From Azolla caroliniana (lineage: Eukaryota; Plantae; Polypodiophyta): 64,000 nt of DNA. The number at the start of each line of letters is the position of its first letter. Position 1 is the first letter of the stretch. The notes under the pieces were generated by a model. That model had not been told where the DNA came from. It saw nothing but the letters and a program-made list of their open reading frames with translations, and did not search any database. This document shows positions 2,683 through 52,100 of the stretch, piece by piece. The DNA lies in contig JBHGNT010000008.1 of assembly GCA_043228905.1 (NCBI GenBank), positions 11,780,001 through 11,844,000 on the forward strand, in the 5' to 3' direction. The position numbers and the translations under genes were made by a program.

Positions 2683-2752
2683 GGGCAAGTAAGGATTCGA
2701 ACCTTGCGCCTCCAAGTTAGGAGTCAATTGGCTTACCATTAAGCCATGCCAT
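2683..2752 (-). promoter_or_regulatory. tRNA-like Pol III A/B-box module in G1 LTR (further copies 9261-9330, 9581-9650)
   Basis: Minus strand: TGGCTTAATGGTAAGCC...CAAGGTTCGAATCCTT. A box, D-stem GGCTT/AAGCC, B box, T-stem AAGG/CCTT, canonical tRNA spacing. Confidence 0.7.
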
Positions 2753-3226
2753 TTAGTTGAATTTATATTTCTGTCATTGTACTTTTTTTTACATGTAAAT
2801 TCTCATACATGAGAGCTAAAATGAGTGACATGGTTATCATGTACCACATGTAATACATAAGCGCCAAATGGCAAACATGCATTTTATGCATGTCTTGTAC
2901 CCTCACATGCATCATATGCATGAGAGCATCTATAAAAGAAGGAAGGGGGAGGAGAAAAAATGCGTTTTTTGGGTTATGAAATTAAGAGGAAGAAATTTGT
3001 TATCAAATTGATCGTGTAACTTGTTTCTTAAATCCAAAGATAAAAGTTCAATCAATCTCTCTCAATCATTGAATCTCAACTTCTCTCTTTCCCAATCTAT
3101 CTTAAGTACTTTCTCGCTAAAGCTTGTGCCAAAGCTTGTACCGACTTTGAATCCTTCCGGTCCAGAACCCCGGCGGTTCTGCCTCACGATCCGCGCGTAG
3201 TGACGGATCTTCACGACATAATTGAG

Positions 3227-3243: not shown

Positions 3244-3285
3244 AAGAGGCGGTAGGAAGGATCAAGTCGAGATTAATACTTGGAG

Positions 3286-8673: not shown

Positions 8674-10057
8674 TGTCGTGAAGATTTTCGGCAATAGTGT
8701 GAAAATCCCATAAAACGTACAAAAACGAGTATGAATCACATAATACAATAATTGTGAAGATAGCATTTTAAATAAATGTAATATCTAAGTACAAAATGAT
8801 AGAGGTTTCGAATGCAGTTTATTACACGAGAAACGGACAACTAAATGTCAAGATATGAGGGTATAAAGTTTGTGAAAGGAAAAGAGAAAATTGTGAGATA
8901 TCCCACATAGGCACGACAAATACGGCCCTCATCATATATAAGGTAGAGCAAAAGATATTATCTTTGTGTCTATGTGTGGAGCATAGAGAGTTCAAGGTAA
9001 CTTGAACTAAGAGTGGAGGTGGGCTAGCTACTCGTAAAGGGTTTTGGCCAACCAAAACCGGACCGGCGATGAAGCCGGTGATTTGGCGCCAGTGAGACAC
9101 CGGCATCCGGTGACATCTGGCGACGGTGAGATGATGGCATCCGGCGAAGCACCGGTAACCGACGGCAAGGTGACGGTATCCGGCGGCATCCGGCGAACCG
9201 GCGTCCGGTGACTAGATAAATAAATATATAAATATATATACAGATATACATATACAAGGAGGGCAAGTAAGGATTCGGACCTTTCACCTCCGAGTTAGGA
9301 GTCAATTGGCTTACAATTAAGCCATGCCATTTAGTTGAATTTATATTTCTGTCATTGTACTTTTACATGTAAATTCTCATACATGAGAGCTAAAATGAGT
9401 GCATCCGGCGAGGCACCGGTAACCGACGGCATCCGACGGCAATCCGGCGACGGCAAGGTGACAGTATCCGGCGCCGGTGAGACGACGACATCCGGCGCGG
9501 CACCGGCATCCGACGAACCGGCGTCCGGTGACTAGATAAATAAATATATAAATATATATACATATATACATATACAAGGAGGGCAAGTAAGGATTCGAAC
9601 CTTGCACCTCCGAGTTAGGAGTCAATTGACTTACAATTAAGCCATGCCATTTAGTTGAATTTATATTTCTATCATTGTACTTTTACATGTAAATTCTCAT
9701 ACATGAGAGCTAAAATGAGTGACATGGTTATCATGTACCACATGTAATACATAAGCGCCAAATGGCAAATATGCATTTTATGCATGTCTTGTACCCTCAC
9801 ATGCATCATATGGATGAGAGCATCTATAAAAGAAGGGGGAGGAGAAAAAATGCGTTTTTTGGGTTATGAAATTAAGAGGAAGAAATTTGTTATCAAACTG
9901 ATCGTGTAACTTGTTTCTTAAATCCAAAGATAAAAGTTCAATCAATCTCTCTCAATCATTGAATCTCAACTTCTCTCTTTCCCAATCTATCTTAAGTACT
10001 TTCTCGCTAAAGCTTGTGCCAAAGCTTGTACCGACTTTGAATCCTTCTAGTCCAGAA
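8674..10057 (+). repeat. G1 3' LTR (internal ~320-bp duplication, last ~50 bp lost)
   Basis: Starts TGTCGTGAAG after the PPT. Similarity to the 5' LTR stops at ...TCCAGAA (10057). Confidence 0.85.
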
Positions 10058-10072
10058 TGGTTCACCAAATGG

Positions 10073-10737
10073 TGTCATGAAGATGCGCGTGCGAGCGTGC
10101 TTCGCTTGAGCGGGACCACCGGGGTCTTGGACTAAGGAGGATGTCCGTCAAGGTATTGAGAAGAGGACGATGTGAATGTAAGATTGGAGGAAGACCTATT
10201 ACACTTGAGAAGATTGAAGATTTTATACTTGAGAAGTAGATAAATCATTACAAGATAGATGCGAAGAAGATGAAATAGAAGCTTATTTTATTGATGGTGA
10301 TGATGATCATGATATCATTTTGAGCCCCCCCCCTTTACACAAGCCATACTAGGGGTTTTATAGGTTTGTCCATGCACAAAACCATGGGCTTGGAGCCATG
10401 GTTTCTGTGCACACAGTTTTGCTTTGTGACATGCAGGAAACCATGGGCTTAAAACCGTGGTTTTGTATACACGGTTTTGTTCGTTTGTTTCCTACGGAAT
10501 ACTGAATATGAAAAAGAAATATAGAACATCTAAAGCACTTAGTAGTAGCTTTAATGGTAAGGTAATTGCCTCTTATCTTAGAGGTGCAAGGTTCAAATCC
10601 TACTTGCAACCCTCTACATGCACTCAATGCTACTGTGACCTAGGTTTATTTATTTTCATTTTTACAAGTATTCGTGAAATGTGTGTGTGACCTAGGTTTT
10701 TGCATTTTTCTCGCACTAAACATGCCACATCACGACA
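10073..10737 (-). repeat. Inverted 5' LTR of a related gypsy family (G4) with a 9-bp PBS-Trp remnant at 10059-10067
   Basis: The minus strand reads TGTCGTGA...ATCTTCATGACA then CCATT TGGTGAACC. Its U5 motif ATCCTCCTTAGTCCAAGACCCCGGTGGT is homologous to G1/G2 U5. Confidence 0.8.
10539..10608 (+). promoter_or_regulatory. tRNA-like A/B-box module in G4 LTR (antisense to that LTR)
   Basis: TAGCTTTAATGGTAAGG...GAGGTGCAAGGTTCAAATCCTACTTGC is clearly homologous to the G1 module. Confidence 0.7.
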
Positions 10738-15949: not shown

Positions 15950-18900
15950 TGTCGTAGTGTATTCCACACACTACGTGAAAACCATAAAATAATATATCCG
16001 ATTTTAGATACATATAGATAAATAAATAATATATCAAAATATTTATCACGTGCATAAGGCAAGATTTGAACCCTATACCTCCACGTAGCCAAACCTCAAC
16101 TTTACCATTATGCTACCTTATTTTTAGTGTTCTACAAATAGATTTAATAACTATAACTGCTTTATTTGCGCCTACCTTTATTAAAAGGTAAATCATGCAT
16201 TTTTAGAGTGCGTGAATATTTTATAGAAAAACGCAAGCAACTAAAAAGTGACTCATGTACATCTAGCGTGCGTGAGCACTATATTTAGCAAATAAAAGCA
16301 AGGATTAGAAAAGCATCACATGCACATTTAGTGTGCATGAACATATTATAAAAAAGCATGTAGCTATGCTTAGTCTCTCCCATCACTATATAAGGATGGG
16401 GAGCACATTGTAGTTTTTGTTGATTTTTTTTTCTATAATGATCAATCAATCTAAAATATTCGTGGGATTCACGAATTTGCTAAAATAATTCTCTCTTACT
16501 ACCTAAATATTGACTAAATATACTAAACTCGTGGGATTCACAAGATTCTTATCTTATAACTCTTTATACCTATTCTTTACTAGACTTATTTGTATTTTTC
16601 TTCCTCCTAGTCCATAACCTCGGCGGTTCCCACCCGACTCACGCAACGATCCGGAGCCGAAAGGCACGACACAGTTGGTGAATCCGACATGAAAACCGGG
16701 TGGCAAGGAGATGGAAAATCAACCGGAGGCTAGCAACCTGATGATGATGTTCGAGCGCATGCTACAAGAACAACGCGCGATTTCGGAGATAGCGGCATCA
16801 GTGGAGCGGCTCGTGCAACGAAATGGGCAATTCAATGGGAAAGACGTGTCGCGGTATCTTCGGGACTACAAGCGGAGATGCTATGGTGCGGAATATCGGA
16901 AAGACTGCAAGTGACGTCCTTCAACCGGGTGGCGACCAACGGGCTTCAAGCAAGCATCCATGGGCTACGACAACAAAATCCGACATGGGAGGTGTTTGAA
17001 GAAGAGCTAAAGAGGACGTTCGCCATCGAGGATTCCTCCAAGGCGACGCGAAGGGGATTCGAAGATTGGGTGGAGACGCCGGACAAGGGATTGAAGGTCG
17101 TTGATGTGTTTTCGGCATTCGAAAGCCAGTTCGGGAGGTTGTCCGTGAGAGATCAAGCTATCCTCGTACGGGATAAGGTGATCATGTTCTTGCGAGCCGT
17201 GGACATCCGGGACCGGAAAGATCTCGGAGTGCTCTTGGAGGACATGACCACGGAGAGTGGCCTCACCGAAACATGGGAAAGCGTGCAGGATATTGTCGCG
17301 TGATACACGAAGAGGGGGCAATGGCTTGCCAACGAGGAAAAGAGGGTTTCGGAACCGATTCCGAAACCGAGAACCGGATTGGAAGACCATCAACCAAGGG
17401 CTCGGGAGACTACAACCGAGAAGGGGATTGATGCATCTACGGTGGAGCAACTATTGAAGGAGATGGAGAATCTGAAGATCGCGATGGTGAAGAAGTCGGA
17501 TGACCGACCCACAAGCTCCAAGTATACGGACCAACGGTGCATATGGTGCGATAGCGCCGAACACGATCGGAGGGATTGCGACGAGCATAAGGAGGCGCTA
17601 CGGCGGGATCTCGTCTACTACGAGGGGAACCAGATTCATTTGATGGACTCTCGGAAGCCACTCCGACCGAACTTCCGGAAAGGCGGCATGAAGAAGGTGC
17701 TCGAGGAGGAATTGGCGGCAAGAAGCAACTATGCGACAACCGCGGGAATATGTGTTGGGGAGTCATCGAGAGCAAGGACGTCTTTTTGGCCGGAAGTTCT
17801 AGAAAACACTGAGAAAACCGACTCCAACGATATCCGAAGCACCGCGGAAGGCGTCCGGGAAGCTACGGGATGGGAGTGCCCTGTTGACAAGAATAGCGTA
17901 TACGCCCTGTGTCAATTGCATAAGGTGTATATGGATGAGAAACGACGATGCACGGAGGATGCGGGCGGGCCATCGAAGATACCAGAAAGCTGGAACTCCG
18001 GAGGTAAGGGAAAAGAAAAGGCAACTCCGGCATTCAAGCTCGCCTCGGACATAGAACAACAAACCAACTTGAAAAGAGTGTTCGAGGAAAGGATCTTGGA
18101 TAGCCGGGTAGATTTTTCGCTTCGGGAGCTACTCGGAATAGCAAAGAAGGAGTTCCACAATCTTCTCGTGGATCTCGTGAAGCGAAAAAGACAAAGTATG
18201 GAGGAAAATGATCCAAGGGTGAATGCGAACACCGTTTTAATGAACGACACCGAAGTGGAGGACGAAATTCCGAACTCCCACTATACAAGGCCACATTGGG
18301 CACACGCGACGACGGAGACTCTGGTTCGAATCGGCAACATCAAAGAACCCGTGCTAGCATTGATTGATCACGGATCGGAGATCAACGTGATGTCCAAGGA
18401 GTTCTACCGGAAGGGGAAGTGGCCTATTAACACCAACCATGGATGGAAGATTCGGGCAGCCACCAAAGCAATGGAAGATCTATTTGAGGCTTGTCCGGAT
18501 GTGATGGTGAAGATCAGGGATGTCGAGATCGACCAAAATTTCTTCGTGCAAGATGAGGTTTCACATTCCGTCATCCTCGGCCAACCCTTTATCACGGCAT
18601 CACGGATGGAGACGAAGTTGCTCGATAGCGGTGCGGCTTTTGCGCGAATTCGGAGCCAAAACGGTGGGAAATCCGTCCAATTCCTAACAGTGCCGGCAAA
18701 TCACGAAAGGAACAAGAGAGAACTCTTGGCCCTCTTGTTCCTTTCGGACTGTTGCGGAGTGGGGAAGTGATAGTCCGAGAAGCCCTGATACCCCACACAG
18801 GAAGAAAACTCTCGGAGCAAAACATGTACGAATAGGTCTGGATGGGGCATCTACATACACGACCGTAACCGGAGGATTGAAGAAAGGATACCGACAAGTG

Positions 18901-21900
18901 GAGGATAAGTTGCGGTCGGCATCAATAATAAAAGAAGATGAAGAAATCATGGGGATAGTTGAAGAAGTGTTCTATGGGAGCACGCTACAATGACTTGAAG
19001 AGCTTGCGGAAGATAAAAGCCAAGGGAACCGGGTAGTCCCGATGGAATCGGTTGAGATGTACGAGATCATTGCGAAAATGGAGCCGGATACGCTCCGCAA
19101 AGAAGAAGCAATGGTAAGTACGAAATACAAGAACGTGGAGAAGAAGGTGAAACCGGTCGCGGGACCACTACCCGGGAGATCCGACACTTCGGAAGTCCGT
19201 GGATATCGGACATGCCTTCACGGATGAGACCCGGAAGAAACTTCGGATTGGTGGAGGTGGGTTCCTATTACAAAAAGAAGAACGGTTTCGCGAGATGTTG
19301 GAGCAACACGGCAAAGCGTTTGCATTTACATCAAGGGAGATAGGGTGCGTCGATCCGAGAATAGTGGAGCCGATGGTGATCTTCACAATTGACCATGTAC
19401 CATGGAACCTGAAGCCGATTCCGGTGCCACGAGCGAATATTCCGAAAGTCATTGACTTGCTCAAGGAGAAGGTGGTGATGGGGATTCTAGAGCCATCAAC
19501 TGCTCCGTACTCAAATCGATGGTTTACGGTTCCAAAGAAGAATGGGTCACTCCGATTTATCCAAGACTTGCAACCGGTTAATAAGGTCACGATCCGGAAC
19601 TCGGGAGTCGGTCCGATAGTGGACGAATTTGCGGAAGCTTTTGCCGGTCGTGCGATATACTCCATCGGAGACTTATACTCGGGGTATGACCAATTCCAAC
19701 TAGCCGTGGAGAGCCGAGACATCACAACCATGCGAACACCAATAGGATTAGTCCGAATGTGCACACTACCACAAGGAGCGACAAACTCGGTTGCTCATAT
19801 GATAAACGCGATGAACAAGGTGCTTCGAGACTGCATTCCGGAGATAACGATGTCATTCCTCGATGACATTCCGATGAAATGATGCGCGGTAGAAGAAAAA
19901 GATGAGACTATGGATGATCGGGGATGCTGAAAGTTCGTGGTCGACCATATTCATGATTGCGAGAAAGTGTTGCGAAAGCTAGAAGATGTGCACCTAACAC
20001 TTTCCGGGGAGAAATCAGCATTTGGGCAAGAAGAAATATTGGTGGTCGGACATCTATGTGGGCCCTACGACCGAAGACCGTCACCAACAAAGACCGTCAC
20101 CAACAAAGATTGTTGAGTCCCCGACCTCTTGTAACATCTTTCCGATCATCAAACTCTCTCCCTCGTATTCTTCTTCCTGGAATTCTCGGATTACGTTCAC
20201 TCGGCATATGTGCTCCGACGCGAAGTAGTCTTCGGAAACTTCTTCATTATCCGATTCGGTTATGTCGTCTCCGAACCGAGCCCTTGATAACATATCCGCT
20301 ACGACCGACCGATCATAGTAACGGTTGATACAAGTCCAACCGTTATCGGGTGGGTCATCAATCAAGCCGACTCGGATGGTTCGCGGTATCCGATCCGATT
20401 CGGAGCAAAGGTTCTCAACGAAAGGCAACGTGGATATGCACAAGTCAAAAGAGAACTGTGGGGAGTCGTGTCGGCGATAAAATCGGATCGGGATTATTTG
20501 ATTGGAGCCGAAGTGGTGATCGAGACGGATTGTCTTCCGATACTCGGGATGATGCGGTGTTGTACGATACCGGATGTAGCTATGCTAAGGTGGGTTGCAT
20601 ATGTCAAGTCGCTTAATCCGGAGGTTCGACACATCTCGGGGAAAGACAACGCAGTAGCGGATATGTTATCAAGGGCTCGGTACGGAGACGACATAACCGA
20701 ATCGGATAATGAAGAAGTTTCCGAAGACTACTTCGCGTCGGAGCACATATGCCGAGTGAACGTAATCCGAGAATTCCAGGAAGAAGAATACGAGGGAGAG
20801 AGTTTGATGATCGGAAAGATGTTACAAGAGGTCGAGGACTCAACAAACGATAAAGGAAGAAGAGCCGAGATTAGAAGGAAGAAGAGGCAAGTCCAAAAGT
20901 TCTTCTTGGAAAACAGATTAATATGGAGGGCGCCGAAAAGACCGGATGGTATACCACTTCGAGTAGTCGGGAAAAAAGAGCAACGAAACCGGATAATGTC
21001 CGAGTTTCACGAATCCGATTGGGCTGGACACCGAGGAACATGGGCAACATTTGTGAAGATCAAGCAAAAATATTGTTGGAAGAAAATGTACAAAGATGTC
21101 GCGGAGTTCACGGAAAGCTGCGAGAAATGTCAAGTCTACTCCGGGGTTCGACATCGAGATGAGTTACATCCAACATTCTCACCGACAATCAACTTCAAGT
21201 GGATGGTCGACATAGTGGCCATGCCGACCGGGATCGAACAAAAGAAATACTTGGTATTAGCTCGGGAAGATCTCACGAATCAAGTAGAAGGTCGAGCGCT
21301 TCAGAGGAAAACGTGTTCCGCGGTATGCCAATTTCTTTTGGAGGAAGTATTTTGCAGGTACGGGTGCGGAGGGCAAGTGATTGCGGACCGGGAAGAACTC
21401 GACTCGGACAAAGCTAGGGGATTCTTCGCCAAACACAGAGTTCGGTTATCACTGACAACGGTATACAATCCGGAGGCCAACGGGAAAATCAAACGAGGAC
21501 ATAGTCCGATCGTGAAAGCACTTGCGAAGGCATGCGATGGAAAGGTGAAGGACTGGCCGCAGATGCTTCCGTATGCACTATGGGCGGATCGGACGACGCA
21601 TAGCTCCATAACCGGTTACATGCCACCAGAACTCATGACCGGACAAGCACTGGTAATGCCGACGGAAACCGCGATCGCAACATGGACAGTGCTACCGTGG
21701 AAGGAAGAGATGAGCCGGGAAGAACTACTAGCGGTCTGGATACGACAACTAGAGGGAAGACCGGCAGACATAGCTGAAGCAATACGCCGACAACAAGAAG
21801 CACGGTTCCGGAACAAAAGCCGGTTCAACACAAAGCACCGACTACGACCGAGGAGGATTGAAGAAGGAGATTGGGTGATCGTCTATGACAGTAGTTTAGA

Positions 21901-23296
21901 CCATCAACATACAACGATGCGGAAATTCGCGAACCAACCATACGAGGTTCGGAAAGTCTTCGACAACGGAACGTACTGACTATCCGAGTTGGATGGTACA
22001 ATACTACGAGTGCCTATAGCCGGGAATCGGGTGAAGATTTTCAAGAAGCGGACCGACGACAAACCCTATGTGATCCAAGCCAAGGCCGACAACGAGGAGC
22101 AATCAGACGAAGACCACGGTGATGCGGGAAGCGAAGAAAGTGAATTACAACTCATAGTCGACATTAGGGGAGAATCGGAGGAAGCTTTGGGTGAAGAGGG
22201 ATATGAGGAATCGAGAACTTCGGCACATACCGGAGGATGTGCGGGTTCAGAGGGGGCAAGTGTCGTAGTGTATTCCACACACATAATATATCCGATTTTA
22301 GATACATCAATTTCTTTTGGAGGAAGTATTTTGCAGGTACGGGTGCATAGGGCAAGTGATTGCGGACCGGGGAGAACTCGACTCGGACAAAGCTAGGGGA
22401 TTCTTCGCCAAACACGGAGTTTGGTTATCACTGACAACGGCATACAATCCGGAGGCCAACGGGAAAATTGAACGAGGACAACTCATAGTCGACATTAGGG
22501 GAGAATCAGAGGAAGGTTTGGGTGAAGAGGGATATGGGGAATCGAGAACTTCGGCACATACCGGAGGATGTGCGGGTTCAGAGGGGGCAAGTGTCGTAGT
22601 GTATTCCACACACATAATATATCCGATTTTAGATACATATAGATAAATAAATAATATATCAAAATATTTATCACGTGTATAAGGCAAGATTTGAACCCTA
22701 TACCTCCACGTAACCAAACCTTAACTTTACCATTATGCTACCTTATCTTTAGTGTTCTACAAATAGATTTAATAACTATAACTGCTTTATTTGCGCCTAC
22801 CTTTATTAAAAGGTAAATCATGCATTTTTAGAGTGCGTGAATATTTTATAGAAAAACGCAAGCAACTAAAAAGTGACTCATGCACATCTAGCGTGCATGA
22901 GCACTATATTTAGCAAATAAAAGCAAGGATTAGAAAAGCATCACATGCACATTTAGTGTGCATGAACATATTAGAAAAAAGCATGTAGCTATGCTTAGTC
23001 TCTCCAATCACTATATAAGGATGGGGAGCACATTGTAGTTTTTGTTGATTTTTTTTTCTATAATGATCAATCAATCTAAAATATTCGTGGGATTCACGAA
23101 TTTGCTAAAATAATTCTCTCTTACTACCTAAATATTGACTAAATATACTAAACTCGTGGGATTCACAAGATTCTTATCTTATAACTCTTTATACCTATTC
23201 TTTACTAGCCTTATTTGTATTTTTCTTCCTCCTAGTCCAAAACCTCGGCGGTTCCCACCCGATTCACGCAACGATCCGGAGCCGAAAGGCACGACA
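15950..23296 (+). mobile_element. Ty3/gypsy element G2 (Phygy/Selgy-like), full length but disrupted
   Basis: LTRs 15950-16671 and 22592-23296 (TGTCGT...ACGACA), PBS-Trp 16676-16692, PPT GAGGGGGCAAG, flanking ACGG direct repeat, gag/PR/RT/RH/INT ORF pieces 16711-22250. Confidence 0.92.
16054..16121 (-). promoter_or_regulatory. tRNA-like A/B-box module in G2 LTR (copy at 22679-22746)
   Basis: Minus strand ATAAGG-TAGCATAATGGTA...GGGTTCAAATCTTG-CCTTAT. Acceptor-like 6-bp stem, tRNA spacing, and a T4 run ~15 nt downstream. Confidence 0.65.
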
Positions 23297-36065: not shown

Positions 36066-36797
36066 AGGGGGAGTTTGTTGGGATTTTCGGTCCCTCCGGA
36101 TGGGATGTCCGGAGATGAATGACGGCAAGCCCGGTTACGGTTACGGAACCGGATGAAGATACAGGTCCGGTGAGCGCACTCTCCGGATGATGAAGAGTAC
36201 CCGGATACGGATCCGGATGATGAAGTACCCGGATACGGATCCGGATGATGAAGTACCCGGATACGGATCCGGATGATGAAGACCCCGGCTACGGAGCCGG
36301 ATGACGAAGACCCGGCTCCGAGCCGGATGATGAATGTACCCGGAGAGAGATCCGGATGCGGGGACATATTTATAAATATGTTTGCCAAGAGCCCTTGAGG
36401 CTATATGTGTAAATAGTCCGAAAGTCATATGTGTATAAATATGACTTAGGGCAAACAGTTTAGTGTGGTTGCTCATTTTTCATGAGAAGTGAGAGCAGCC
36501 GAGAGAGAGAGAGAGAGACAGAAACGAAGAGGTCGACGCCTCTGTGTAATACCGCCGCCTGTGGCGAGGACAGCGAGCTCAAGATCGTCGCCTTGCAGCT
36601 CGCCATTGTATATTCCAGTGTATAGTGATAGTTGGAGTCGTGCACTCCCGTGGTTTTTCCCGTTTAGGGTTTTCCACGTTATACCCTGTGTAGTCGTCTC
36701 TCTGTGTTTTTTTTCTTTCCCATTTTCTGTTGTATTGATCCGCGTTGTCTCGGTTGTGGCCGAGAGGCGAAAGATTGGATAGCGTCAAATCTCTACA

Positions 36798-37224
36798 AAC
36801 TGGTATCAGAGCACGGTAACACAGAAAATGGAAGGCGGCGGTAGTGGGCCTCCGGGCATGATGGTGCTGAATGCACAGAACTACGCCGACTGGAAGATCA
36901 AGATGGAGGATCTTCTGATTGTTCGGGACCTGTACGAACCGATTGACAGGTCGGAAATACCGAAGGGGGTACTTGAGACGGAATGGAGGCTTCTGAACCG
37001 GAAAGCCGTAGCGACGATCCGGCAATATGTCGATGTAAGCGTCCTACAACATGTGGCGAACGACACCAACGCATACGAGATGTGGAAGAAGCTGTCGGGC
37101 CTCTACGAGAGGAAGAATGCGTTGAACCGGACCTCCCTGATGAGAAAGATAGTGAACCTCAAGTACCGGGACGGCGAGAGTATGGTGGAACACGTAAGCA
37201 CGTTCATGGGATTCGTGAACCAGC
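36798..37224 (+). pseudogene. gag: Second PBS plus truncated duplicate gag following the 3' LTR
   Basis: Identical to 31959-32385 up to ...GTGAACCAGC, then switches to host copia-A integrase. Confidence 0.92.
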
Positions 37225-41168: not shown

Positions 41169-41271
41169 TGTTGTGTGAATCACACACTACGTGAAATATG
41201 TAAAATACTATATCCCATTTAAAGTACGTATAATAAATAAAATAAAATATTCAAAATGTTTATTACATGCA

Positions 41272-41337
41272 TAGGGCAAGATTCGAACCTTCTACCTTCA
41301 CATAGACAAACCCCAACCTTACCATTGTACTATCCTA
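41272..41337 (-). promoter_or_regulatory. tRNA-like A/B-box module in G3 LTR
   Basis: Minus strand TAGGA-TAGTACAATGGTAAGG...AGGTTCGAATCTTGC-CCTA, followed by T4 runs. Confidence 0.65.
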
Positions 41338-44300
41338 AGTGTTCTAAACATAGATTTAATACGTATAAGACCTTAATTTACGCCTACCTTTATTTAAAGA
41401 AAAGTCATGCATTTCTTAGAATGCGTGAATACTTTATTTATAAGAAAAATATACACCACTAACAAATGACTCGTGCACATCTAGCAAGCATGAGCACTAT
41501 ATTTAGGAAATAAAAGCATAGTGTAAAAAGGCAACTCATGCACATTTAGTGTGCATCAACACTTTAGAAAAAGCATGAAGCTATGCTTAGCCTCTTCCAT
41601 CCTTATATAAGGAGAAGAGAATGATGTATGGGGGTTGTTGCTTATTTTACAAGGGTGGATTAATATAATATAATTGTGGGATTCACGAATTTGCTAACTA
41701 TTTTTTTCTCTCTTAATCTGAGTACTCACTAATACACTATACTCGTGCGATTCACGAGTTTTTCATATCTTTCTTTCTTACAACATATTTCATATTCTTC
41801 ATTGGCTTAGAATTTCCTTTTCTCCTAGTCCAAAACCTCAGTGGTTCCCGCCCGACTCACGCAACGATTCGGAGCCGAAAGGCACGACACAATTGGTGAA
41901 CCCGACGTGAACACAGGTGGCAAGGAGATGGAAACTCAACCAGAGGCTAACAACATGATGATGATGTTCGAGCGGATGCTTCAAGAACAACGTGTGATGT
42001 TGGAGATAGCGGCGGCAGTAGAGCGGCTCGTGCAACGGATCGGGCAATTCAACGGAAAGGACATATCACGCTATCTTCGGGACTACAAGGCAGAAATGAT
42101 ACGGTGCGCGATTTCGGAAGGACTGCAAGTGACATTCTTCAACCAGGTGGCTACCGACGGGCTTCAAGAAGTATCCACGGGCTACGACAACAAAATCCGA
42201 CGTGGGAAGCGTTTGAAGAGGCGCTAAAGACCACATTCGCTATCGAGGACTCCTCCAAGGCAATGCAGAGAGGATTTGAGGATTGGGTGGAAACACCGAA
42301 CAAGGGGATGAAGGTCCTCGATGTGTTATCGGCATTCAAAAGTCGGTTCGGGAGGTTGTCCGCGAGAGATCAAGCTATCCTTGCACCGGACAAAGTTATC
42401 ATGTTCTTACGAGCCGTAGACGCCCGGGACCGGAAGGATCTTGGAGTGCTACTAGAGGATGCGACTATTGAGGGTGGCCTCACTGAAACATGGGAAAGCG
42501 TGCGGGATATCGTCACGCGATACACAAAGAGAGGGCAATGGCTTGCCAACAAAGAGAAGAGCGTTTCGGAATTGATTCCGAAACCAAGATCTTGATCGGA
42601 AAACCATCAACCGCGGGATTGGGAAGCTACCACCGAGAAGGGAATCGATGCAACTACGGTGGAGCAGTTGCTGAAGGAGATGTAGAATCTAAAAATCGTG
42701 ATGGTGAAGAAGTCGGATGACCGTCCCACAAGTTCCAAGTATATGGACCGTCAGTGCAAATGGTGCGATAGCACTGACCATGATCGGAGGGATTGCGACG
42801 AGCACAAGGAAGCGCTATGACGGGATCTTATCTACTACGAGGGAAATCAGATTCATTCGATGGACTCTCGGAAGCCGCTCCGACAAAACTTCCGAAAAGG
42901 CGGCATGAAGACGGTCCTAGAGGAGGAAATAGCGGCGAAGAGCAATTACGCGACAACCGCAGGAATACGTGTCGGGGAGGGAAAAGAAAAGACGATTCCA
43001 GCATTCAAGCTCGCCTCGGACGTCGAACAACAAATGGACATGAAGAAAGTGTTCGAGGAGAGAATCCTCGATAGCCGGGTAGATTTTTCACTTCAGGAAC
43101 TACTCGGAATAGCAGAAAAGGAGTTCCATGATCTTCTTGAGGATCTCGTGAAAAGAAAAAGACAAACTATGGAGGAAAATGTGCCGAGGGTGAATGCAAA
43201 TACCGTTCTGATGAACGACACCGAAGTGGAGGACGAGAGTCCGAATTCCCACTATACAAAGCCACACTGGGCGTGTGCAACTACCGAGACTCCGGTCCAA
43301 ATCGGCAACATCAAAGAGCCCGTGCTAGCATTGATTGATGACGGATCGAAGATCAATTTGATGTCTAAGGAGTTCTACCGGAAGGGCAAGTGGCCTATTA
43401 ACACGAATCATGAATGGAAGATCCGAGCGGCAACTAAACCAACGGAAGTTCTATTTGTGGCTTGTCCGGATGTGACGGTGAAGATCGGGGATGTCGAGAT
43501 CGACCAAAATTTCTTCGTACAAGACGAGGTCTCACACTCCGTGATGCTTGGGCAACCCTTTATCACGGCTTCACGGATGGAGACGAAAGTGCTCGATAGC
43601 GGTGCAGCTTTTGCACGAATTCGGAGCCAAAACAGAGGAAATCCGTCCAATTCCTAACGGTGCCGGCAAATCATGAAAGGAACAACAGAGAGCTCTTGTC
43701 CAAAACCAGAATGGATTTTTAGTGCGGACATTTGCAGAGTGGGGAACTGATAGTCCGACAAGGCCAAATACCCCACACAGGAAGAAATCTCTCGGAGCAA
43801 AACAAGTATGAATCGGTCCATATGGGGCATCCACGTACACAACCGTAACCGGAGGAATAAAGAAAGAATACCGAAAAGTGGAGGATAAGTTACGGTCGGC
43901 ATCAATAATATGTGAAGACGAAGAAATCATGGGAATAGTCGAAGAAGTGTTCTATGGGAGCACGCTACAACGGCTTGAAGAACTCGCGGAAGATACATGC
44001 CAGGGAAACCGGGTAATTCCGGTGGAATCGGTCGAGACGTACGAGATCATTGTGAAAATGGGGCCGAATGCGCTTTGCAAAGAAGAATGAATGGTAAGTA
44101 CGAAATACAAGACCGTGGAGAAGAAAGTGAAACCAGCCGCGGGACCGTTACCCGCAGATAGCGTACAAAATGACGGGAACTAAACGCTCCTTATGCACAG
44201 CGCTCGGCCACAACCGAGCTTAGACTCATACACAGAAAATGGGAAATGAAACGCAACACAAAGAAGAGAAGGGTACATAGGATGTTTACATGCAAAACCC

Positions 44301-44689
44301 AAACTAAGGGAAAAACCCACGGCAGCCCACAGGCTGCAAACTATCACTATGTTAGTTTGTACAACAGTGAGTTCACGGAGGCAACGACCTCGTGCTCACG
44401 ATCCTCGCCACAAGCGGCGGTTACAATCAGAGGCAACGACCTCTTCCTCTCTCGCTTACTCTCTGTACACTATTACACATTCTGATCTCACGTAAACAAG
44501 AATAACAACAGACAACCAAAAGTTGTCAAGACTAAGAGAGAGAAAGAGAGAAAGAGAGAAAAAGAGATAGAGAGATAATTGAAGATAATTATTGTATTGA
44601 AGCGTAAAATGGATTACAAAGAGTAGGCTACAAAATGGCGTTGAACCAATTTAGGTTTGGGATGGGTGGTAGATCCCTATTTATAAGTA

Positions 44690-44870
44690 ATAGAGAACAC
44701 TCTAGAATATTCTAGGTTATCCTAGAATGTAGAGTAATCTAGAAGATCTCTAGAGTATTCTAGAAGGTTCTAGTGGTATAGAACACTCTAGAATATTCTA
44801 GGTCATTCTAGAATGTAGAGTAATATAGAATATTCCTATGATATTAGATTTCATATTCTAGAGACTATAC
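44690..44870. promoter_or_regulatory. Heat-shock-element-like array in Tcn1-like U3 (copy ~49975-50155)
   Basis: Perfect aTTCt-aGAAg-gTTCt at 44757-44771 and repeated aGAAc-aCTCt-aGAAt-aTTCt, upstream of the TATA on the element strand. Confidence 0.65.
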
Positions 44871-44875
44871 ATATA

Positions 44876-44945
44876 AGAATATTAATACAATGGTTAAGGA
44901 TTTGACATGTGTACAACAAGGTCGTGGGTTCAAATCCTTTCGAGT
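44876..44945 (+). promoter_or_regulatory. tRNA-like A/B-box module in Tcn1-like LTR (copy 50160-50229)
   Basis: TAATACAATGGTTAAGG...AAGGTCGTGGGTTCAAATCC with tRNA spacing, antisense to the element. Confidence 0.6.
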
Positions 44946-44991
44946 CATAATGTGAGTGTCATCATCCTTTCGATGCATGATGTGAGTGTTA

Positions 44992-46101
44992 TCATGACAC
45001 TATCCCCCTTCTTGGACGACACGTCTCATGGGTCGTAGGGTTTGTATTAGGACCTGGTTTACAAGGATATTGGCGATGAAATGCATTGACGAGTTCTGCA
45101 GCATTGGAAAGATTTGCGGCAGGTTCCCAAGCTCGATCATTGGGGGTATAACCTAGCCAATCGACTAAGTAACACAGCTTGTTGCGCACGATTTTAGAAT
45201 CGAGAACGGCAGCAACTTCAAATTCAGGCCCGTCCAAGAACTCGACAGGTGGGGGGGGTGTCGTAAGTCGGCCCGGAATTGAACTTGTAGTATAAGGTTC
45301 CAAAAGGGATACATGAAACACCGGATGAAGATGCATGTGCGGAGGGAGGTCAAGACGAAATGCAACATCACTTATCTTACTAGTGATCATGTAAGGGCCA
45401 AAACGTTGGTAATCCAATTTACTGCAAGGTCGAGTGGTCTTGATGTTGTGTTGGAGAAGCCATACATAATCCCCAATGCGGAACTTTTTTGAGGAGTCTA
45501 GACGATGACGATCGGCAAGCCTCTTGTGTGTAAATTGAGCATCGTGCAAATTGTGGAGAATGTTAGCTTGAATTTCTTGGAGGCGACTAAGACGATCCTC
45601 GGCAGCAGGGTTGGTAGGAACTTCTGGATGCACATTCATCGTCCACCGAGGATGACAGCCCGTATTTGCGAAAAATGGGGAATATCTTGTAGAAGAATGG
45701 GCTGAGTTGTTGTAAGCAAATTCCGCCAAGTGCAAAAAAGCAACCCAATCATCTTGTTGATAGTTGATGAAACAACGAAGATATTGTTCCAATGTCTGGT
45801 TGGTATGCTCTGTTTGGCCATTTGTTTCAGGATGATAGCCCGAAGAAAGCTTAACTGAAATGTGAAGAAGTTTGAACATGTGCTTCCAAAACTTTGAGAT
45901 GAATTGTGGACCACGATCACTAATAATATCATCCGGCAGACCATGATGCTTAAATACCTCCCGCATAACGAGATCAGCCGCCTCTTGACTAGTAATCGAC
46001 TTTGTACATGGCAAGAAATGTGCCATTTTGGTAAATCGATCAACCACTGTGAGAATTGCATCAAAACCTTTTGAAATTGGGAGATCAGTAATGAAGTCCA
46101 A
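44992..46101 (-). CDS. Integrase core plus chromodomain portion of Tcn1-like pol (open 369 aa)
   Basis: MDFITDLP, SDRGPQF, HPETNGQTE, GPY, chromodomain. Confidence 0.8.
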   Translation of the reverse strand: MDFITDLPISKGFDAILTVVDRFTKMAHFLPCTKSITSQEAADLVMREVFKHHGLPDDIISDRGPQFISKFWKHMFKLLHISVKLSSGYHPETNGQTEHTNQTLEQYLRCFINYQQDDWVAFLHLAEFAYNNSAHSSTRYSPFFANTGCHPRWTMNVHPEVPTNPAAEDRLSRLQEIQANILHNLHDAQFTHKRLADRHRLDSSKKFRIGDYVWLLQHNIKTTRPCSKLDYQRFGPYMITSKISDVAFRLDLPPHMHLHPVFHVSLLEPYTTSSIPGRLTTPPPPVEFLDGPEFEVAAVLDSKIVRNKLCYLVDWLGYTPNDRAWEPAANLSNAAELVNAFHRQYPCKPGPNTNPTTHETCRPRRGIVS

Positions 46102-49100
46102 GGATATAGACTTCCAAGGAGTTTCCGGAATGGGAAGTGGTTGTAGTAAGCCATAGGGTCGGTGAGGAGGATTCTTTGATCGACAACATATATCACAACT
46201 CCGAACATAATCCTCAACAAAATGACGAAGGCGAGGCCATCAATAGCGTCGAGAAATTAATTCTAGAGTCTTGTGAACTCCAAAATGACCAGCCATTGGT
46301 GAGTCATGGCAATGTTGCAAAACTTGTAGCCGTGGGGGACCATCAGGAACATACAATAAATTTTGTCAAAATAGAAAACCACCATGCCAATAGAACTGAC
46401 AATAGTCATTACGAGGATTTTTCGACCATGAGCAAGAAGCACGATCCGGGACAATATGATCCAAAACATCCTTGGCGAAATCATCAGTGGCCATATGATC
46501 TCGAATGGAATCAAGAAAAGTGGAATTTTCAAGAGTTGTTATGGCGTTAACTACCATTAATCGTAATCGATTAGGACCCAAAAGGATTTGTTTTTTATGC
46601 TCAAATGCAGGTTCCCCTGGACGAAGTTCCATATAAGAGCGCTGAGAAAGAGCATCTGCTTTGCCTTGCTGCATCCCAGGGCGATATATGATGATAAAAT
46701 CGAAGTGAGTTAAAAATTGCGCCCACCGGGCTTGTCGCCGACTCAAGACTCGAGCATTTTGGAAATAAGTCAGGTTCTTATGATCATTCTAGACAATGAT
46801 CTGCTGAGAAGAACCTTCTAGGAAATGTCGCCATTGTTGAAACGAATCCACGATTGCAAGAAGCTCTTTGTCATGGATCTCATAGTTGATCTCTGCAGCT
46901 TCAAACTTTCGTGAATGAAACACAGTCTACGAGAGGACACTCCCTAGTGCAAAATCGGATGCATCGGCTTCGAGGATGAAGCGTTTTGTTGGGTCGACAT
47001 GTGCTAAGATAGGTGCCGTTGTAAATGCTCATTTTAAGCTTTCAAATGCCTCGGCTGCATCTGAACTCCATATAAATGGTCGATCTTTATGTGTGAGCTG
47101 AGTAAGCGGAAGCACAACCTTGGAATAATCTTTAATAAATTTTCGATAAAAATTTGCAAACCCGAGAAAACATTGCACATCACGCACTGAAAGGGGCGTT
47201 TGCCACTCTAAAATTGCTTGTACCTTCATGGGGTCCATAGCAATACCATTTGACGATACAACATACCCCAAAAATTCCACTTAATTCTGGCCGAAACTAC
47301 ACTTTTCTAATTTTGCGTAGAGACCATATTCTCAGAGTCGACGCAGTACCTGACGAACATGTTCATCATGCTCCTCTTGGGTCTTTGAGTAGATTAAAAT
47401 ATCATCTAGGTAAACTATAGTGAAGATATCAAGAAAATCTCGAAAGATATCGTTCGCCATATGTTGGAAAACAGCAGGTGCATTCGTGAGACCAAATGGC
47501 ATCACTGTATACTCAAAATGTCCATAGCGAATGCGGAAAGCTGTCTTCCATTCATCCCCCGGGCGAATCCGAACTAGATTATATGCTCCGCGAAGGTCCA
47601 ACTTCGTGAAATATTTTGCACCACTGAGACGTTCCAAAAGATTCAGGATTAATGGTAGAGCATATCTATTCCAAATAGTCACTTTGTTTAGCCCTCGATA
47701 ATCCACGACCAATCGAAGAGTCCCATTCTTCTTCTTAACGAAGAAGATAGGTGCACCAACAAGGGATCTAGAATGCCGAATGAATCCGTTTGCCAGATTC
47801 TCATCAATATATTCCCGCAAAGTTTCTAGCTCTACAGGGGAGAGCTAATAAATTGGGCCCCATGGAGGTTCTTTCCCTAGTTGTAAGTCAATAGGGCAGT
47901 CGTATGGCCGATGCTCCGGCAATGTATTGTCCTTCGCCTTATCAAAGACATCTGAAAACTCCTTGTATTTCTCTGGAAGTTTAATATCCGCCTCATGTGA
48001 AGTGGATGATGGAGTTGCTATTATTGCGAAGACGAACATGGCCTCGTTCCCCCCTTCCTCTCGCAACTGTCGTAAAGAGATGGGCGATAACTCCGGGGAT
48101 CTATTATCACATGTAGGAGAGAGGGATGCAGGGTTTGTGCTTTTTTCCCGGGTCTCCTCAATTGTTCTTTTCATCCAATCAATCTTCGGGTTATGGAGTT
48201 CAAACCAGGGGAGACCTAGAACTATTGGGTGTTCCGGACTACAAATAATGTTGAAAAAGATTATGCTTGCCAAATTGCCAAGAACTATCCTAATTGGCTC
48301 AGACTCCTCGACTATATCTCCTGATGCTATGGGACGTCCATCAATGACTCATACGGCTACTGGGCTGGGAAGCTTATTCAAGAGGATGTTTTGTGACAAG
48401 GCAAATTCACGATCCATGAAACAAGAGTTGGCTCCAGAATCTAGAAGGGCAGAGGCTAGGACTCGATGACATGTAGATGTGGTAAGCTCGACTTGTGCTG
48501 AAAAAACTCGACTCACTTGATTTGATGAAATGGAACCACGACTAGGAACTAACTCTACATAGCTAGGATGGTCCAACCAAATGGCTCCTATTTTGGCCGG
48601 ACTTACTCGTTTAACACATCCTCTAATTGACTCAAGACATCGAATCTATTCTCATGGCATGGACTATGAGGCTTATTTATGTTATTAGAAGTAACAATAG
48701 AACTCGATGTAGGGTTTTCATGGGCACTTACTTGGTATACTTGACGCCTAGGTTTATGTGGACAATTTACAGGTATATGTCCTGGACCACCACAATACAG
48801 GCACGGGCGATGCGCTCGACGTCGTTGCTTCTCAGCATCTGATAACGGCCCACGACGTTGTGTTGACTCTATTTCCATCGGAGTGGGGCCATCCCTTGTA
48901 ATGGGTCTAGAAACTTGTGGAGGCGTTGCGACTACGGAACCGTAAGTCTGCTCAGGTTAGCGGCGTAACATTTGTTGGCGCTTAGAACGTCGCTCAAATA
49001 GGCGATTATCACATCGCACAGCTCGACTAATAGCTTCTGTAAGTGATTGCGGATCTTCAGGGAAAGTAAGAAGAAGATCTTTGACATCGTTTCTCAAACC

Positions 49101-52100
49101 TTGACGGAATTGATCCATTAAAGCTGCCTCATCCCAAGGGATATCACATGCCAAGAGATGGAAATTGGCTGCATAAGACGACGTGGGACGATCTCCTTGT
49201 CGGAGCCTTCGAATCTTGTTTATCGATGTCCTAGTGCTGTCAGTGTCTCCGAAACTAGCTTGAAACTCTTTAACAAATGCCTCGAAATCCTCCAACAATG
49301 GTGATTTCTTCTCGAGAAGTGGTGCAAACCATGCTAACGCCGTACCGCATAGCAAAGTTCCCACTAATCCCACACGAGCAGCATCAATTGGATACCGATT
49401 GGGATGTAGCTGAATAACTAGACGAACTTGATTCAAAAAGCCTCGAAATAAAGACCTCGTACCATCAAACTTGGCAGGGAGGCTGATCTTTGTCTCTCTA
49501 GGGGAGTTCTGAGCCCCCGACGCTTGCTCACGTAATGACAATATAGTCGCCTTGAGTTGATGAACCCGCTGTGATAACTCTTCATATTGTTGAGATTTTT
49601 CGGCGGTCACGTGTTGTAGATCTCCAAGTAGCCTTTGATTCTCATGCTCTAATGCCACAAATTTATTCGTGAGCATGTCGAGCTCAGAAAGAACACGCAT
49701 GTATTCTTGTTTGCTCACGGACTCCATAGCTTACGAGAGGAGAGGAGAAGGAAGAAGAGAACTTGTTAGGATTTATGGAAGACGAAGAGATGAAAGAAAA
49801 AAAGTTGGTTCAAACTGTCAAGACTGAGAGAGAGAAAGAGAGAAAAAGAGATAGAGAGATAATTGAAGATAATTATTGTATTGAAGCGTAAAATGGATTA
49901 CAAAGAGTAGGCTACAAAATGGCGTTGAACCAATTTAGGTTTGGGATGGGTGGTAGATCCCTATTTATAAGTAATAGAGAACACTCTAGAATATTCTAGG
50001 TTATCCTAGAATGTAGAGTAATCTAGAAGATCTCTAGAGTATTCTAGAAGGTTCTAGTGGTATAGAACACTCTAGAATATTCTAGGTCATTCTAGAATGT
50101 AGAGTAATATAGAATATTCCTATGATATTAGATTTCATATTCTAGAGACTATACATATAAGAATATTAATACAATGGTTAAGGATTTGACATGTGTACAA
50201 CAAAGTCGTGGGTTCAAATCCTTTCGAGTCATAATGTGAGTGTCATCATCCTTTCGATGCATGATGTGAGTGTTATCATGACAAAAGTTTGCCCTAAGTC
50301 ATATTTATACTAATATGACTTTTCGGCTATTTACAAATATGGCCTCGATGGACTCTCAGAAACATATTTACCAATATGTCTCTTTATCCAGTGAGCATTC
50401 CTCACCGGGTCTGCACCATTCGGCTCTCCGTAGCTGGGTACTACTCATCCGGTTCTCACCAGGTATGCGTCATCCGGCTCTCCGGCATTGTTCTTCTCCC
50501 TTCCCATCCGGAGGAACCTGTCTCCCAACAAACTCCCCCTTCACTCCGGCATGGGGAGTCTTACTAGACCGATCCTCTTCCGGCATGCATCCAACTTGTC
50601 GGGTATCAGAACTTTGGTCAACATATCTGACCCGTTCTCGGCCGTGTGGATCTTCGTAAGCGCGAACTCCTGGTCATCTACTCTTTCCCGGATCCAGTGA
50701 TGCCTTCGCTGGATATGCTTCGTCCGGGAATGGTAGGCCGCATTCTTAGCAAGGTGGATGGCACTTTGACTGTCGCAATAGAGTCGGTATTCATCTTGCC
50801 GGATACCGAGCTCTCCGATGAAGTCCTTCATCCATAATATTTCCTTGCCGGCTTCCACAGCCGCCATGTACTCCGCCTCCGTGGTTGACAACGCAACCGT
50901 CTTCTGCAGCCTCGACTGCCACGAAACAGCTCCCCCTGCATATGTCATTACATACCCGGATGTAGACCGGCTGGTATCCACATCAGCCGACATGTCCGAA
51001 TTGGTGAAACCGTCAAGTTGAGGTTTTCTGGAGCCGAATCGGAGACACATATTTGAGGTGCCCTTCAAATACCGGAGTATCCATTTGACCGCGTTCCAGT
51101 GTTCCTTGCCGGGATTGCTCATAAACCGGCTCACCACTTCGACTCCGTATCCTATATCCGGTCGGGTACACACCATTGCCTACATCAAGCTCCCGATGAC
51201 AGAGGCATATGGAATCTTCATCATATCCGCCTTCTCTGCTTTCATCTTCGGACTTTCCTTGCCGGATAACCTGCAGTTTGCCGGAAGTGTCGATCCGACC
51301 GGTTTCGCATCTGACATGTTGAACCGGTGAAGAACCTTTGTCACATACTTCTCCTCTGATAGCCATAATTGCTTCGTTGACCGGTTCCGTATAATATGCA
51401 TCCCTAGCATCTGTCTTGCCGGACCCAAGTCTTTCATTGAGAAGGTCTGGTTGAGAGCCTTCTTCAGCATCCATATTTTGACTTGGTCTCGTCCGACGAT
51501 CAACATGTCGTCCACGTACAGAAGGAGTATCATGAAGCCACCTCCTTCGAACTTCTTCACAAACACGCAGTGATCGGCCTGCGTCTTGTGGTACCCTTGA
51601 TCGGTCATGAAGGAATCGAACTTCCGGTACCATTGCCGGGGGGCCTGCTTCAACCCGTAGAGGCTCTTCTTCAACCGGCATACCAGGTGCTCCTTCCCTT
51701 TCTCCACGAATCCTTCCGGTTGCTGCATGTAGATCTCCTCTTCGAGGTCGCCGTGAAGGAATGTCGTCTTCACGTCTAGCTGCTCTACCTCGAGGTCCAT
51801 GCTTGCCGCTATACTCTTGCCGGTTGGGTCTGCTCATCGTAGAGTCTATCCTTACCGGTCGACTCGGAGTTCATTATCTTCTTCTCCGACTCCTAGTCGG
51901 CGAGCGTCTTGTCCTCCATGAAGATAATATCTCGACTCCGGAATACCTTCTTGTCGACCAGGTCCCACACTCGGTAGCCAAACTCATCGTCACCGTAACC
52001 GAGGAATATGCATGGCCGGGTCTTTGGATGTAACTTTCCTCTCCGGTACTTAGCTACATGCACGTACGCGAGACACCCGAACACCTTTAGATGCCGGTAG

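What the first reader, a model, noticed from the sequence alone, without database searches (positions are those of the whole stretch)
2683..50229. Antisense tRNA-like Pol III modules in the U3 of five gypsy elements from two distant lineages
Seen: a ~70-nt tRNA-like unit (A box like TRGCNNAATGG, B box GGTTCRAATC[C/T], canonical A-to-B spacing, residual stems) at 2683-2752, 9261-9330, 9581-9650 (G1), 10539-10608 (G4), 16054-16121, 22679-22746 (G2), 41272-41337 (G3), and 44876-44945, 50160-50229 (Tcn1-like chromovirus). Every copy is in U3, upstream of the TATA and antisense to its element. The boxes are better kept than the anticodon arm. None was noticed in the copia or Athila-like LTRs. Known: Cassandra LTRs carry 5S sequence, and tDNA/TFIIIC sites act as chromatin barriers. 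Inference: these gypsies may carry a TFIIIC/Pol III cassette as a portable insulator or divergent promoter that helps the LTR work in heterochromatin, acquired convergently or exchanged between lineages. This is the best candidate for an undescribed system here, though I cannot check the literature.
Basis: partly seen in the sequence, partly recalled or inferred. Interest (0 to 1): 0.85.

Follow-up and report, generated by a model that had tools for sequence, protein, structure and literature searches.

The report
Swappable tRNA-box cassettes in retrotransposon LTRs
Many protein-coding jumping genes, likely from seed-free plants, carry in their end repeats a worn tRNA-like stretch that keeps the two RNA polymerase III promoter boxes and their spacing but not the tRNA fold, and it likely serves as an optional docking site that helps the element's own promoter resist silencing, which is untested.

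Summary
Observation confirmed. The nine units are the nine best A-box/B-box scores in the window (17.6-26.6, next 14.6). All lie in U3, antisense, in Phygy-like and Tcn1-like gypsy LTRs. They are not tRNA genes.

In 80 relatives found by integrase, LTR regions hold 24 modules against 0.4 expected, all with a 32-33 nt gap, in 11 of 28 families. Boxes beat the anticodon arm in homologous LTRs (0.86/0.84 vs 0.60). No stem pairs above chance.

- 7 of 23 family slots are sense and 4 lie downstream of the TATA.
- Close sisters lack the module.
- Copies occur outside these LTRs.
- A box-breaking C56T makes up 29-45% of contig depth in the G2/G3 family.

Best reading (0.5): an optional TFIIIC/Pol III docking cassette, exchanged between LTRs and selected as DNA. 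Passenger SINE/tDNA debris remains likely (0.3). Closest known is Helenus (non-coding, sense). The scan noted a one-box relic in another genome (e1-9852194). Function is untested.

The parts
2683..2752 (-). tRNA-like A/B-box module in G1 5' LTR U3 (B box 2693-2703, gap 32)
   Evidence: score 26.6; Rfam tRNA 11.6 bits, below cut-off
9261..9330 (-). Module in G1 3' LTR, duplicated copy with one B-box and one A-box change
   Evidence: 17.6
9581..9650 (-). Module in G1 3' LTR (A-box change shared with the duplicate)
   Evidence: 21.4
10539..10608 (+). Module in G4 LTR, antisense to G4
   Evidence: (20.7)
16054..16121 (-). Module in G2 5' LTR; T4 run 23 nt after the B box
   Evidence: (24.4)
22679..22746 (-). 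Module in G2 3' LTR
   Evidence: 24.4
41272..41337 (-). Module in G3 5' LTR (B box 41279-41289, A box 41322-41332)
   Evidence: (24.4)
44876..44945 (+). Module in chromovirus 3' LTR, antisense to the element
   Evidence: 19.3
50160..50229 (+). Module in chromovirus 5' LTR, close to the LTR's outer end
   Evidence: (19.3)
1782..3218 (+). G1 5' LTR (first bases lost); TATA-like box at about 2930; primer site follows the LTR
8674..10057 (+). G1 3' LTR after the polypurine tract, cut at its end; TATA-like box at about 9824
10058..10737 (-). G4: 5' LTR (10074-10737) plus cut primer site, no coding part; TATA-like box at about 10362
15950..23296 (+). G2 Phygy-like element; LTRs 15950-16671 and 22592-23296 (98.4% alike), 4-bp TSD ACGG; TATA-like boxes at about 16386 and 23011
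41171..41889 (+). G3 5' LTR, relative of G2; TATA-like box at about 41603
44524..50283 (-). Tcn1-like chromovirus; LTRs 49816-50283 and 44524-44999 (99.4% alike), 5-bp TSD, chromodomain, predicted self-priming site; TATA-like box at 49970

Best explanation
The module is a decayed tRNA-type stretch that keeps its A box, B box and spacing, and it likely works as an optional TFIIIC/Pol III docking cassette that LTRs gain, swap and lose, predicted to hold open chromatin beside the element's Pol II promoter. Shown: presence, LTR enrichment, fixed spacing, box retention, no conserved fold, patchy spread over the integrase tree. Inferred: origin from host tRNA genes or tRNA-derived SINE heads; spread by replacement of U3 segments; selection acting on the DNA boxes, not on an RNA fold. 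Predicted and untested: TFIIIC binds, recruits TFIIIB and Pol III to the AT-rich upstream DNA, and the complex, usually facing away from the TATA, acts as a barrier or nucleosome-free seed, as tDNAs do in fission yeast.
For: LTR regions of relatives: 24 hits in 59,115 nt against 0.4 expected, all 24 with gap 32-33; internal regions 4 hits in 293,966 nt against 2.3 expected, gaps 38-39. Leave-own-family-out profile: 36 LTR hits, 0 in 295 kb of shuffles, 1 in 294 kb internal. Six LTRs grouped by family, not by motif: B 0.86, A 0.84, anticodon arm 0.60, median U3 11-mer 0.67; only 2.2% and 3.7% of other U3 windows reach the box values. L003 shares little with G2's LTR but the module and the termini. 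With B-box positions 56-57 unscored, 26 non-redundant modules give CG 10, CA 14 (tolerated), TG 2 (breaks C56); 14:2 has p=0.004, rows not independent. No stem covariation; 15 different anticodon triplets. T4 run 10-30 nt after the B box in 11 of 23 slots (A4 in 1 of 23; local shuffle 6.7, p=0.03, window chosen after seeing data); TATA at -38..-22 in 12 of 23 (local shuffle 4.1). 18 of 23 slots face away from the TATA. Fission-yeast tDNA barriers need TFIIIC plus Pol III and are orientation-independent (PMC2040200, passages).
Against: Absent from 17 of 28 families with 400 nt or more of LTR, and from 5 of 10 with a complete LTR. L057 lacks it though its integrase is 95% identical to that of L046. 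In four DNA runs laid on the G3 module, C56T is 29, 29, 29 and 45% of summed contig depth against 16, 13, 20 and 14% for the tolerated G57A; summed depth is no copy number, but broken-box subfamilies (L006, L007) seem to have multiplied. In that call boxes vary at 6 of 22 positions, flanks at 17 of 95 and the spacer at 12 of 32 (3 rows not shown), so boxes do not beat flanks within the family. Flanks next to the module are nearly as conserved (0.78-0.80), and G2 vs G3 alone shows no box excess. Non-box tRNA hallmarks (pyrimidine at 33, A38, AGGT at 44-47) are also kept, as expected for recent captures. TATA is as common at -21..-5 (11 of 23). Two modules lie in 48 kb of flanking DNA. A review of plant barriers cites tDNA/TFIIIC barriers for yeast and animals, and none for plants in the passages seen (PMC9540200).
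Confidence: 0.5

Rival explanations
1. Passenger. The host genomes hold many tRNA-like SINE heads or pseudogenes; AT-rich U3 segments pick them up and element amplification spreads them without any benefit. The boxes look conserved because the source elements were selected for them before capture.
For: Modules occur outside Phygy LTRs (L022:3124, L027:12026). Both orientations and tandem extras occur (L023, L043/44, L064). Non-box tRNA letters are retained. C56T subfamilies are abundant and decayed copies exist (L047, L011, L064). None of 4 loci from other sample sets (L021, L055, L066, L078) has a clear module. Kojima reports that 'not a few LTRs' in Repbase hold tRNA-like parts.
Against: Density is about 1 per 1.7 kb in LTR regions against 2 per 48 kb in flanks (flanks include other elements' coding DNA, about half is low-GC). 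The gap is fixed at 31-33 nt while the spacer diverges to near background. Boxes are kept in homologous LTRs where the anticodon arm has turned over. No SINE body, tail or TSD was seen, though sisters with and without the module do not align well enough to test for a TSD.
Confidence: 0.3
2. The product is the point. Pol III makes a short RNA of about 90-100 nt, mostly antisense to U3, that ends at the nearby T run and acts as a decoy or regulator of the element's RNA or of silencing.
For: T4 run 10-30 nt after the B box in 11 of 23 slots, at +23 in G2, G3, L001, L003, L006 and L007; AT-rich upstream DNA. This fits plant tDNA layout (PMC13578239 section 20; PMC3082873 abstract).
Against: No conserved fold or anticodon. 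G1, L050 and the chromovirus have no near terminator. Sense copies exist.
Confidence: 0.12
3. Helenus/Cassandra-like use: the module is the Pol III promoter that makes the element's genomic RNA.
For: Sense modules upstream of the TATA in L004/5, L019, L037/38 and L041; same box conservation as Helenus.
Against: All nine window units and 16 of 23 slots are antisense. The elements are 5-8 kb and coding, with T runs and their own TATA. In the chromovirus the predicted self-primer lies 37 nt after the TATA, as expected for a Pol II start.
Confidence: 0.03
4. Landing pad. The integrase targets Pol III complexes as yeast Ty3 does, so the module draws insertions to sister LTRs.
For: The window is a nest of elements. 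Ty1/Ty3 targeting to Pol III genes is known (PMC12786077 passage; listing of PMC5911963).
Against: G2, G4 and the chromovirus sit in copia-type or other non-module DNA, and no intact insertion with a TSD lies beside a module. Phygy prefers NCGN sites.
Confidence: 0.05

Closest known systems
Helenus / TRIMp3 (Kojima 2024, PMC10886601; parts 1-4 of 6 of the text, searched passages and supplement passages read)
   Same: tRNA-like sequence in both LTRs; conservation centred on boxes A and B; not a working tRNA; multiple origins and SINE capture proposed; one family in a lycophyte (Selaginella).
   Different: Helenus is non-coding, 311-1263 bp, and proposed to use Pol III to make its own RNA; the Selaginella LTR and the others seen in the supplement read sense (my reading). 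Here the hosts are 5-8 kb gag-pol elements with a TATA, modules are mostly antisense, up to three per LTR, and optional. The paper expects autonomous partners not to share a long LTR stretch with TRIMp3.
Cassandra TRIM (5S in LTR; as described in PMC10886601 and a passage of PMC12786077)
   Same: Pol III internal promoter carried in plant LTRs.
   Different: 5S type, sense, non-autonomous, shown to be transcribed; here tRNA type in coding elements, untested.
tDNA / TFIIIC chromatin barriers (S. pombe cen1 tDNA-Ala, PMC2040200 passages; ETC sites, PMC3395662 search listing only)
   Same: A+B boxes with upstream TATA-like DNA; orientation-independent action would fit the mixed orientation.
   Different: Those are host loci with real tRNA genes or lone B boxes and shown binding; here the boxes ride in mobile LTRs and binding is untested.
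Phygy clade and Tcn1 clade (Neumann 2019, PMC6317226, passages)
   Same: G1-G4: short non-chromovirus gypsy, NCGN 4-bp TSD; the primer site is Trp-type by recall. Chromovirus: chromodomain and predicted self-priming.
   Different: The passages read do not mention tRNA-like LTR modules; the supplements were not read. Clade names are assigned by features, not by a tree with reference elements.

Membership tests
Helenus (TRIMp3) | tRNA-like sequence with boxes A and B inside the LTR | tested here: met
Helenus (TRIMp3) | Short non-coding TRIM (about 0.3-1.3 kb) | tested here: not met
   G1, G2 and the chromovirus are 5.8-8.3 kb with RT, RNase H and integrase domains; relatives were found by integrase
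Helenus (TRIMp3) | Pol III promoter placed to transcribe the element (sense) | tested here: not met
   9 of 9 window units and 16 of 23 family slots are antisense
Helenus (TRIMp3) | PBS and PPT present | tested here: met
   the chromovirus has a predicted self-priming site instead
Functional tRNA gene | Cloverleaf passing ARAGORN or the Rfam cut-off | tested here: not met
tRNA-derived SINE insertion | Body and tail after the tRNA head, bounded by a TSD | tested here: inconclusive
   No body or tail seen; sister LTRs with and without the module replace whole U3 segments and do not align
tDNA/TFIIIC barrier | Intact A and B boxes at tRNA spacing with AT-rich upstream DNA | tested here: met
   not in C56T subfamilies
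tDNA/TFIIIC barrier | TFIIIC/Pol III occupancy and blocking of heterochromatin spread | not testable with these tools
   needs ChIP or CUT&Tag and reporters
Phygy (host elements G1-G4) | Non-chromovirus gypsy, short, NCGN target site | tested here: met
   no chromodomain hit in G1/G2 ORFs; G2 TSD ACGG, G4 flank CCGG; definition
Phygy (host elements G1-G4) | Groups with reference Phygy elements in an RT-RH-INT tree | not tested
   no reference set was held; named homologues are Riccia and Adiantum hypothetical proteins
Tcn1 chromovirus | Chromodomain plus self-priming instead of a tRNA PBS | tested here: met
   PF00385 E=3.8e-11; the site after the 5' LTR is complementary to sequence 37 nt after the TATA; no tree with reference Tcn1

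The most novel reading that the evidence does not exclude
Autonomous LTR retrotransposons of two distant gypsy lineages in seed-free plants have repeatedly recruited, multiplied and traded a stripped-down tDNA cassette that docks TFIIIC and Pol III back-to-back with, or on both sides of, their Pol II promoter: a transposon-borne tDNA insulator that shields the LTR from heterochromatin.
Probability: 0.4. Interest if true: 0.8.

Novelty: new variant of a known kind. Interest (0 to 1): 0.58.

Why it matters
If the cassette binds TFIIIC, it is a way for retrotransposons to resist silencing by borrowing the Pol III machinery. It would also seed these genomes with very many potential TFIIIC sites and give natural pairs of sister elements with and without the module to test whether tDNA barriers work in plants, which the review passages read do not show. 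Even as a passenger it extends tRNA-in-LTR capture from tiny TRIMs to coding elements, and may inflate tRNA gene counts in such genomes. The more than 7,500 tRNA genes reported for Azolla (PMC13578239 passage) are a lead only.

Tried and rejected
Data that gave nothing:
- No whole genome is held, so no genome-wide scan was possible.
- Three viral-contig scans were empty. The single metagenome scan went to the Phygy-like integrase (best 80 of 176 kept), so no chromovirus relatives were fetched.
- Relaxed ARAGORN is noise: 43 calls at -ps80.
- No RNA holder was listed. The one guessed RNA run laid no contig on the module; this is no evidence on expression.

Ideas rejected:
- Functional tRNA or conserved cloverleaf.
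- Origin by read-through of the element's own primer tRNA: module 3' ends do not match the primer site by eye, the chromovirus is predicted to self-prime, and sense copies exist.
- Strict vertical descent: antisense modules need at least 4 changes on the integrase tree and are not significantly clustered (32 of 500 shuffles as low). Labels there were set: L017 was marked sense on a weak hit and L047 was left unmarked.

Rows dropped: L074 (a G1-type LTR piece in a flank) and a duplicate L050 call, 28 to 26 rows; L074 and L066 (borderline, no B box) from the family count, 13 to 11 of 28; L068 from the flank count (3 to 2).

Literature: ten full-text searches found no report of A/B-box modules in autonomous plant gypsy LTRs. 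Subscription papers, Repbase entries and the REXdb supplements were not seen.
Full report
SETTING. The window is a nest of LTR retrotransposons. G1-G4 are short non-chromovirus gypsy elements. Their LTRs begin TGTCGT (G1, G2, G4) and end GACA, they share one primer site (Trp-type by my recall), and G2 has a 4-bp ACGG target duplication. These features match the Phygy clade in Neumann 2019 (PMC6317226, passages). Named homologues of G2's RNase H-integrase are from Riccia and Adiantum, so the host is likely a seed-free plant. The element at 44524-50283 has a chromodomain, LTRs 99.4% alike, and a site after the 5' LTR complementary to sequence 37 nt after its TATA. That is the self-priming layout of Tcn1, and it supports the TATA call independently.

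OBSERVATION. The nine units are real. A B-box pattern has 8 matches in 64 kb, all in the units. A hand-made A+B matrix ranks the nine first (17.6-26.6; next 14.6), with gaps of 31-33 nt. All are antisense and upstream of a TATA-like box. Copia and Athila-like LTR stretches have none. They are not tRNA genes: ARAGORN finds 0, whole-window Rfam finds none, and the best unit scores 11.6 bits against a cut-off of 29.

RELATIVES. An integrase alignment fetched 80 of 176 confirmed metagenome loci, forming 37 clusters at 85% nucleotide identity. These are assembled contigs of repeats and may be chimeric. With the untrained matrix, LTR regions (59,115 nt) gave 24 hits against 0.4 expected, 16 antisense and 8 sense, all with gap 32-33. 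Internal regions (293,966 nt) gave 4 against 2.3 expected, with gaps 38-39. A leave-own-family-out profile gave 36 LTR hits, 0 in 295 kb of shuffles, 1 internal, and 3 in 48 kb of flanks, one of which looks like a coding match. After dropping L074 and L066, 11 of 28 families with 400 nt or more of LTR carry a module, and 5 of 10 with a complete LTR do. Some LTRs carry two or three. Of 23 family slots, 16 are antisense and 7 sense. Upstream of the TATA 15 are antisense and 4 sense; downstream 3 are sense and 1 antisense; so 18 of 23 face away from the TATA (TATA calls by pattern or by eye; slots not fully independent). The four loci from other sample sets that have LTR sequence show no clear module.

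WHAT IS CONSERVED. In six homologous LTRs grouped by family (G2, G3, L001, L002, L006, L007), mean identity is 0.86 in box B, 0.84 in box A, 0.60 in the anticodon arm and 0.67 for the median U3 11-mer. The adjoining flanks are 0.78-0.80, and G2 vs G3 alone shows no excess. Among more distant LTRs the module is the main alignable island, but those rows were chosen for having it. Across 26 non-redundant modules, no tRNA stem pairs better than permuted partners, and 15 anticodon triplets occur. Unscored positions T20-A21, the pyrimidine at 33, A38 and AGGT at 44-47 are also kept. This shows tRNA ancestry, and may reflect either extended factor contacts or recent capture. With positions 56-57 unscored, the states are CG 10, CA 14, TG 2. 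A T4 run lies 10-30 nt after the B box in 11 of 23 slots (local shuffle 6.7, p=0.03, window chosen after seeing data). TATA lies at -38..-22 in 12 of 23 (shuffle 4.1) but also at -21..-5 in 11 of 23. This resembles plant tDNA layout (PMC13578239 section 20; PMC3082873 abstract).

COUNTER-EVIDENCE. Contigs of four DNA runs (three studies; X1 may be the window's source) were laid on the G3 module. C56T, which by established knowledge weakens TFIIIC binding (recalled), is 29-45% of summed depth against 13-20% for the tolerated change. A nearby CpG at 41362-63 shows no listed decay change, so this looks like amplified subfamilies (L006/L007 type), not per-copy decay. Boxes vary at 6 of 22 positions (4 degenerate), flanks at 17 of 95, spacer at 12 of 32; three rows were not shown. 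For the chromovirus LTR, three DNA runs show no B-box variant at 10% or more. L046 has the module and L057 (95% integrase identity) has a different U3 without it. Modules also occur in flanking DNA.

SPREAD. On the integrase tree (47 rows), antisense modules need at least 4 changes. Non-box module identity does not rise with integrase identity (Spearman -0.17, 226 non-independent pairs). L019 and L062 share 0.57-0.69 with each other and with the G2-group modules listed, at 58-72% integrase identity, while L004 (79% to G2) has an unlike, sense module. Sister LTRs differ by whole U3 blocks, so no insertion boundary or TSD could be read. The chromovirus module is at best 0.47 alike to any Phygy-like one (median 0.35), which favours separate gain over exchange between the two lineages.

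MECHANISM. Shown: presence, enrichment, fixed spacing, box retention, no fold, patchy spread. Inferred: tDNA or SINE-head origin, U3 exchange, DNA-level selection. Predicted: TFIIIC, TFIIIB and Pol III assemble there and keep the LTR promoter region open, as fission-yeast tDNA barriers do regardless of orientation (PMC2040200 passages). I give this 0.5, passenger debris 0.3, a functional short RNA 0.12, a landing pad 0.05 and a Helenus-type promoter 0.03.

KNOWN WORK. Helenus (PMC10886601; parts 1-4 of 6, passages and supplement passages) has tRNA-like A/B boxes in the LTRs of non-coding TRIMs. The paper says 'not a few LTRs' in Repbase have tRNA-like parts but studies only TRIMs. Our elements fail the TRIM and sense tests, so they are not Helenus. 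A 2025 review passage names Cassandra as the Pol III exception among plant LTR elements (PMC12786077). Ten searches found no description of this arrangement in autonomous elements; subscription papers, Repbase and the REXdb supplements were not seen. The scan's own notes hold a one-box antisense tRNA relic in an LTR from another genome, judged a passenger (e1-9852194; unchecked), and no look-alike of the G2 module.

VERDICT. Real, widespread in this lineage and apparently undescribed in this form: a new variant of small-RNA-gene capture in LTRs. The insulator role is plausible but untested, and is weakened by dispensability. Interest 0.58.

Noticed in passing
window 49933 and 49802-49815 (minus strand): The chromovirus has no tRNA primer site; the 14 nt after its 5' LTR are largely complementary to sequence 37 nt after the TATA, a Tf1/Tcn1-type self-priming layout.
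   Followed up: partly
window 55047-62853 (minus), site at 55461-55480: The Athila-like element has a primer-site-like word facing the wrong way beside its 3' LTR, where a polypurine tract is expected. The scan has noted this lineage many times in the same genome.
   Followed up: no
window 24261-28057: Tandem array of about five 716-727 nt units of copia coding sequence, about 82-85% alike.
   Followed up: no
window 31237-32388 and 36076-37227: Young copia: the 99.9% identical repeat (1,152 nt) includes LTR, primer site and about 400 nt beyond, so a second primer site follows the 3' LTR.
   Followed up: no
window 20110-20846 and 22147-22638: G2 is rearranged: a 193-nt inverted duplication in pol, and a doubled polypurine tract plus LTR start separated by an integrase piece.
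   Followed up: no
L001, L002, L003 LTRs: Integrases 98-100% identical but LTRs very different (L003 shares mainly the module and termini): U3/LTR replacement or chimeric assembly.
   Followed up: partly
L022:3050-3140 and L027:12000-12080: tRNA-like A/B modules outside Phygy LTRs; the L022 one has a duplicated A-box half in simple-repeat DNA. They may represent the source pool.
   Followed up: partly
window 50250-50283 and 44966-44999: The window's chromovirus has a short duplication at the LTR's outer end; many contigs of family copies break off at 50249, which would put the B box about 28 nt from the LTR end.
   Followed up: partly
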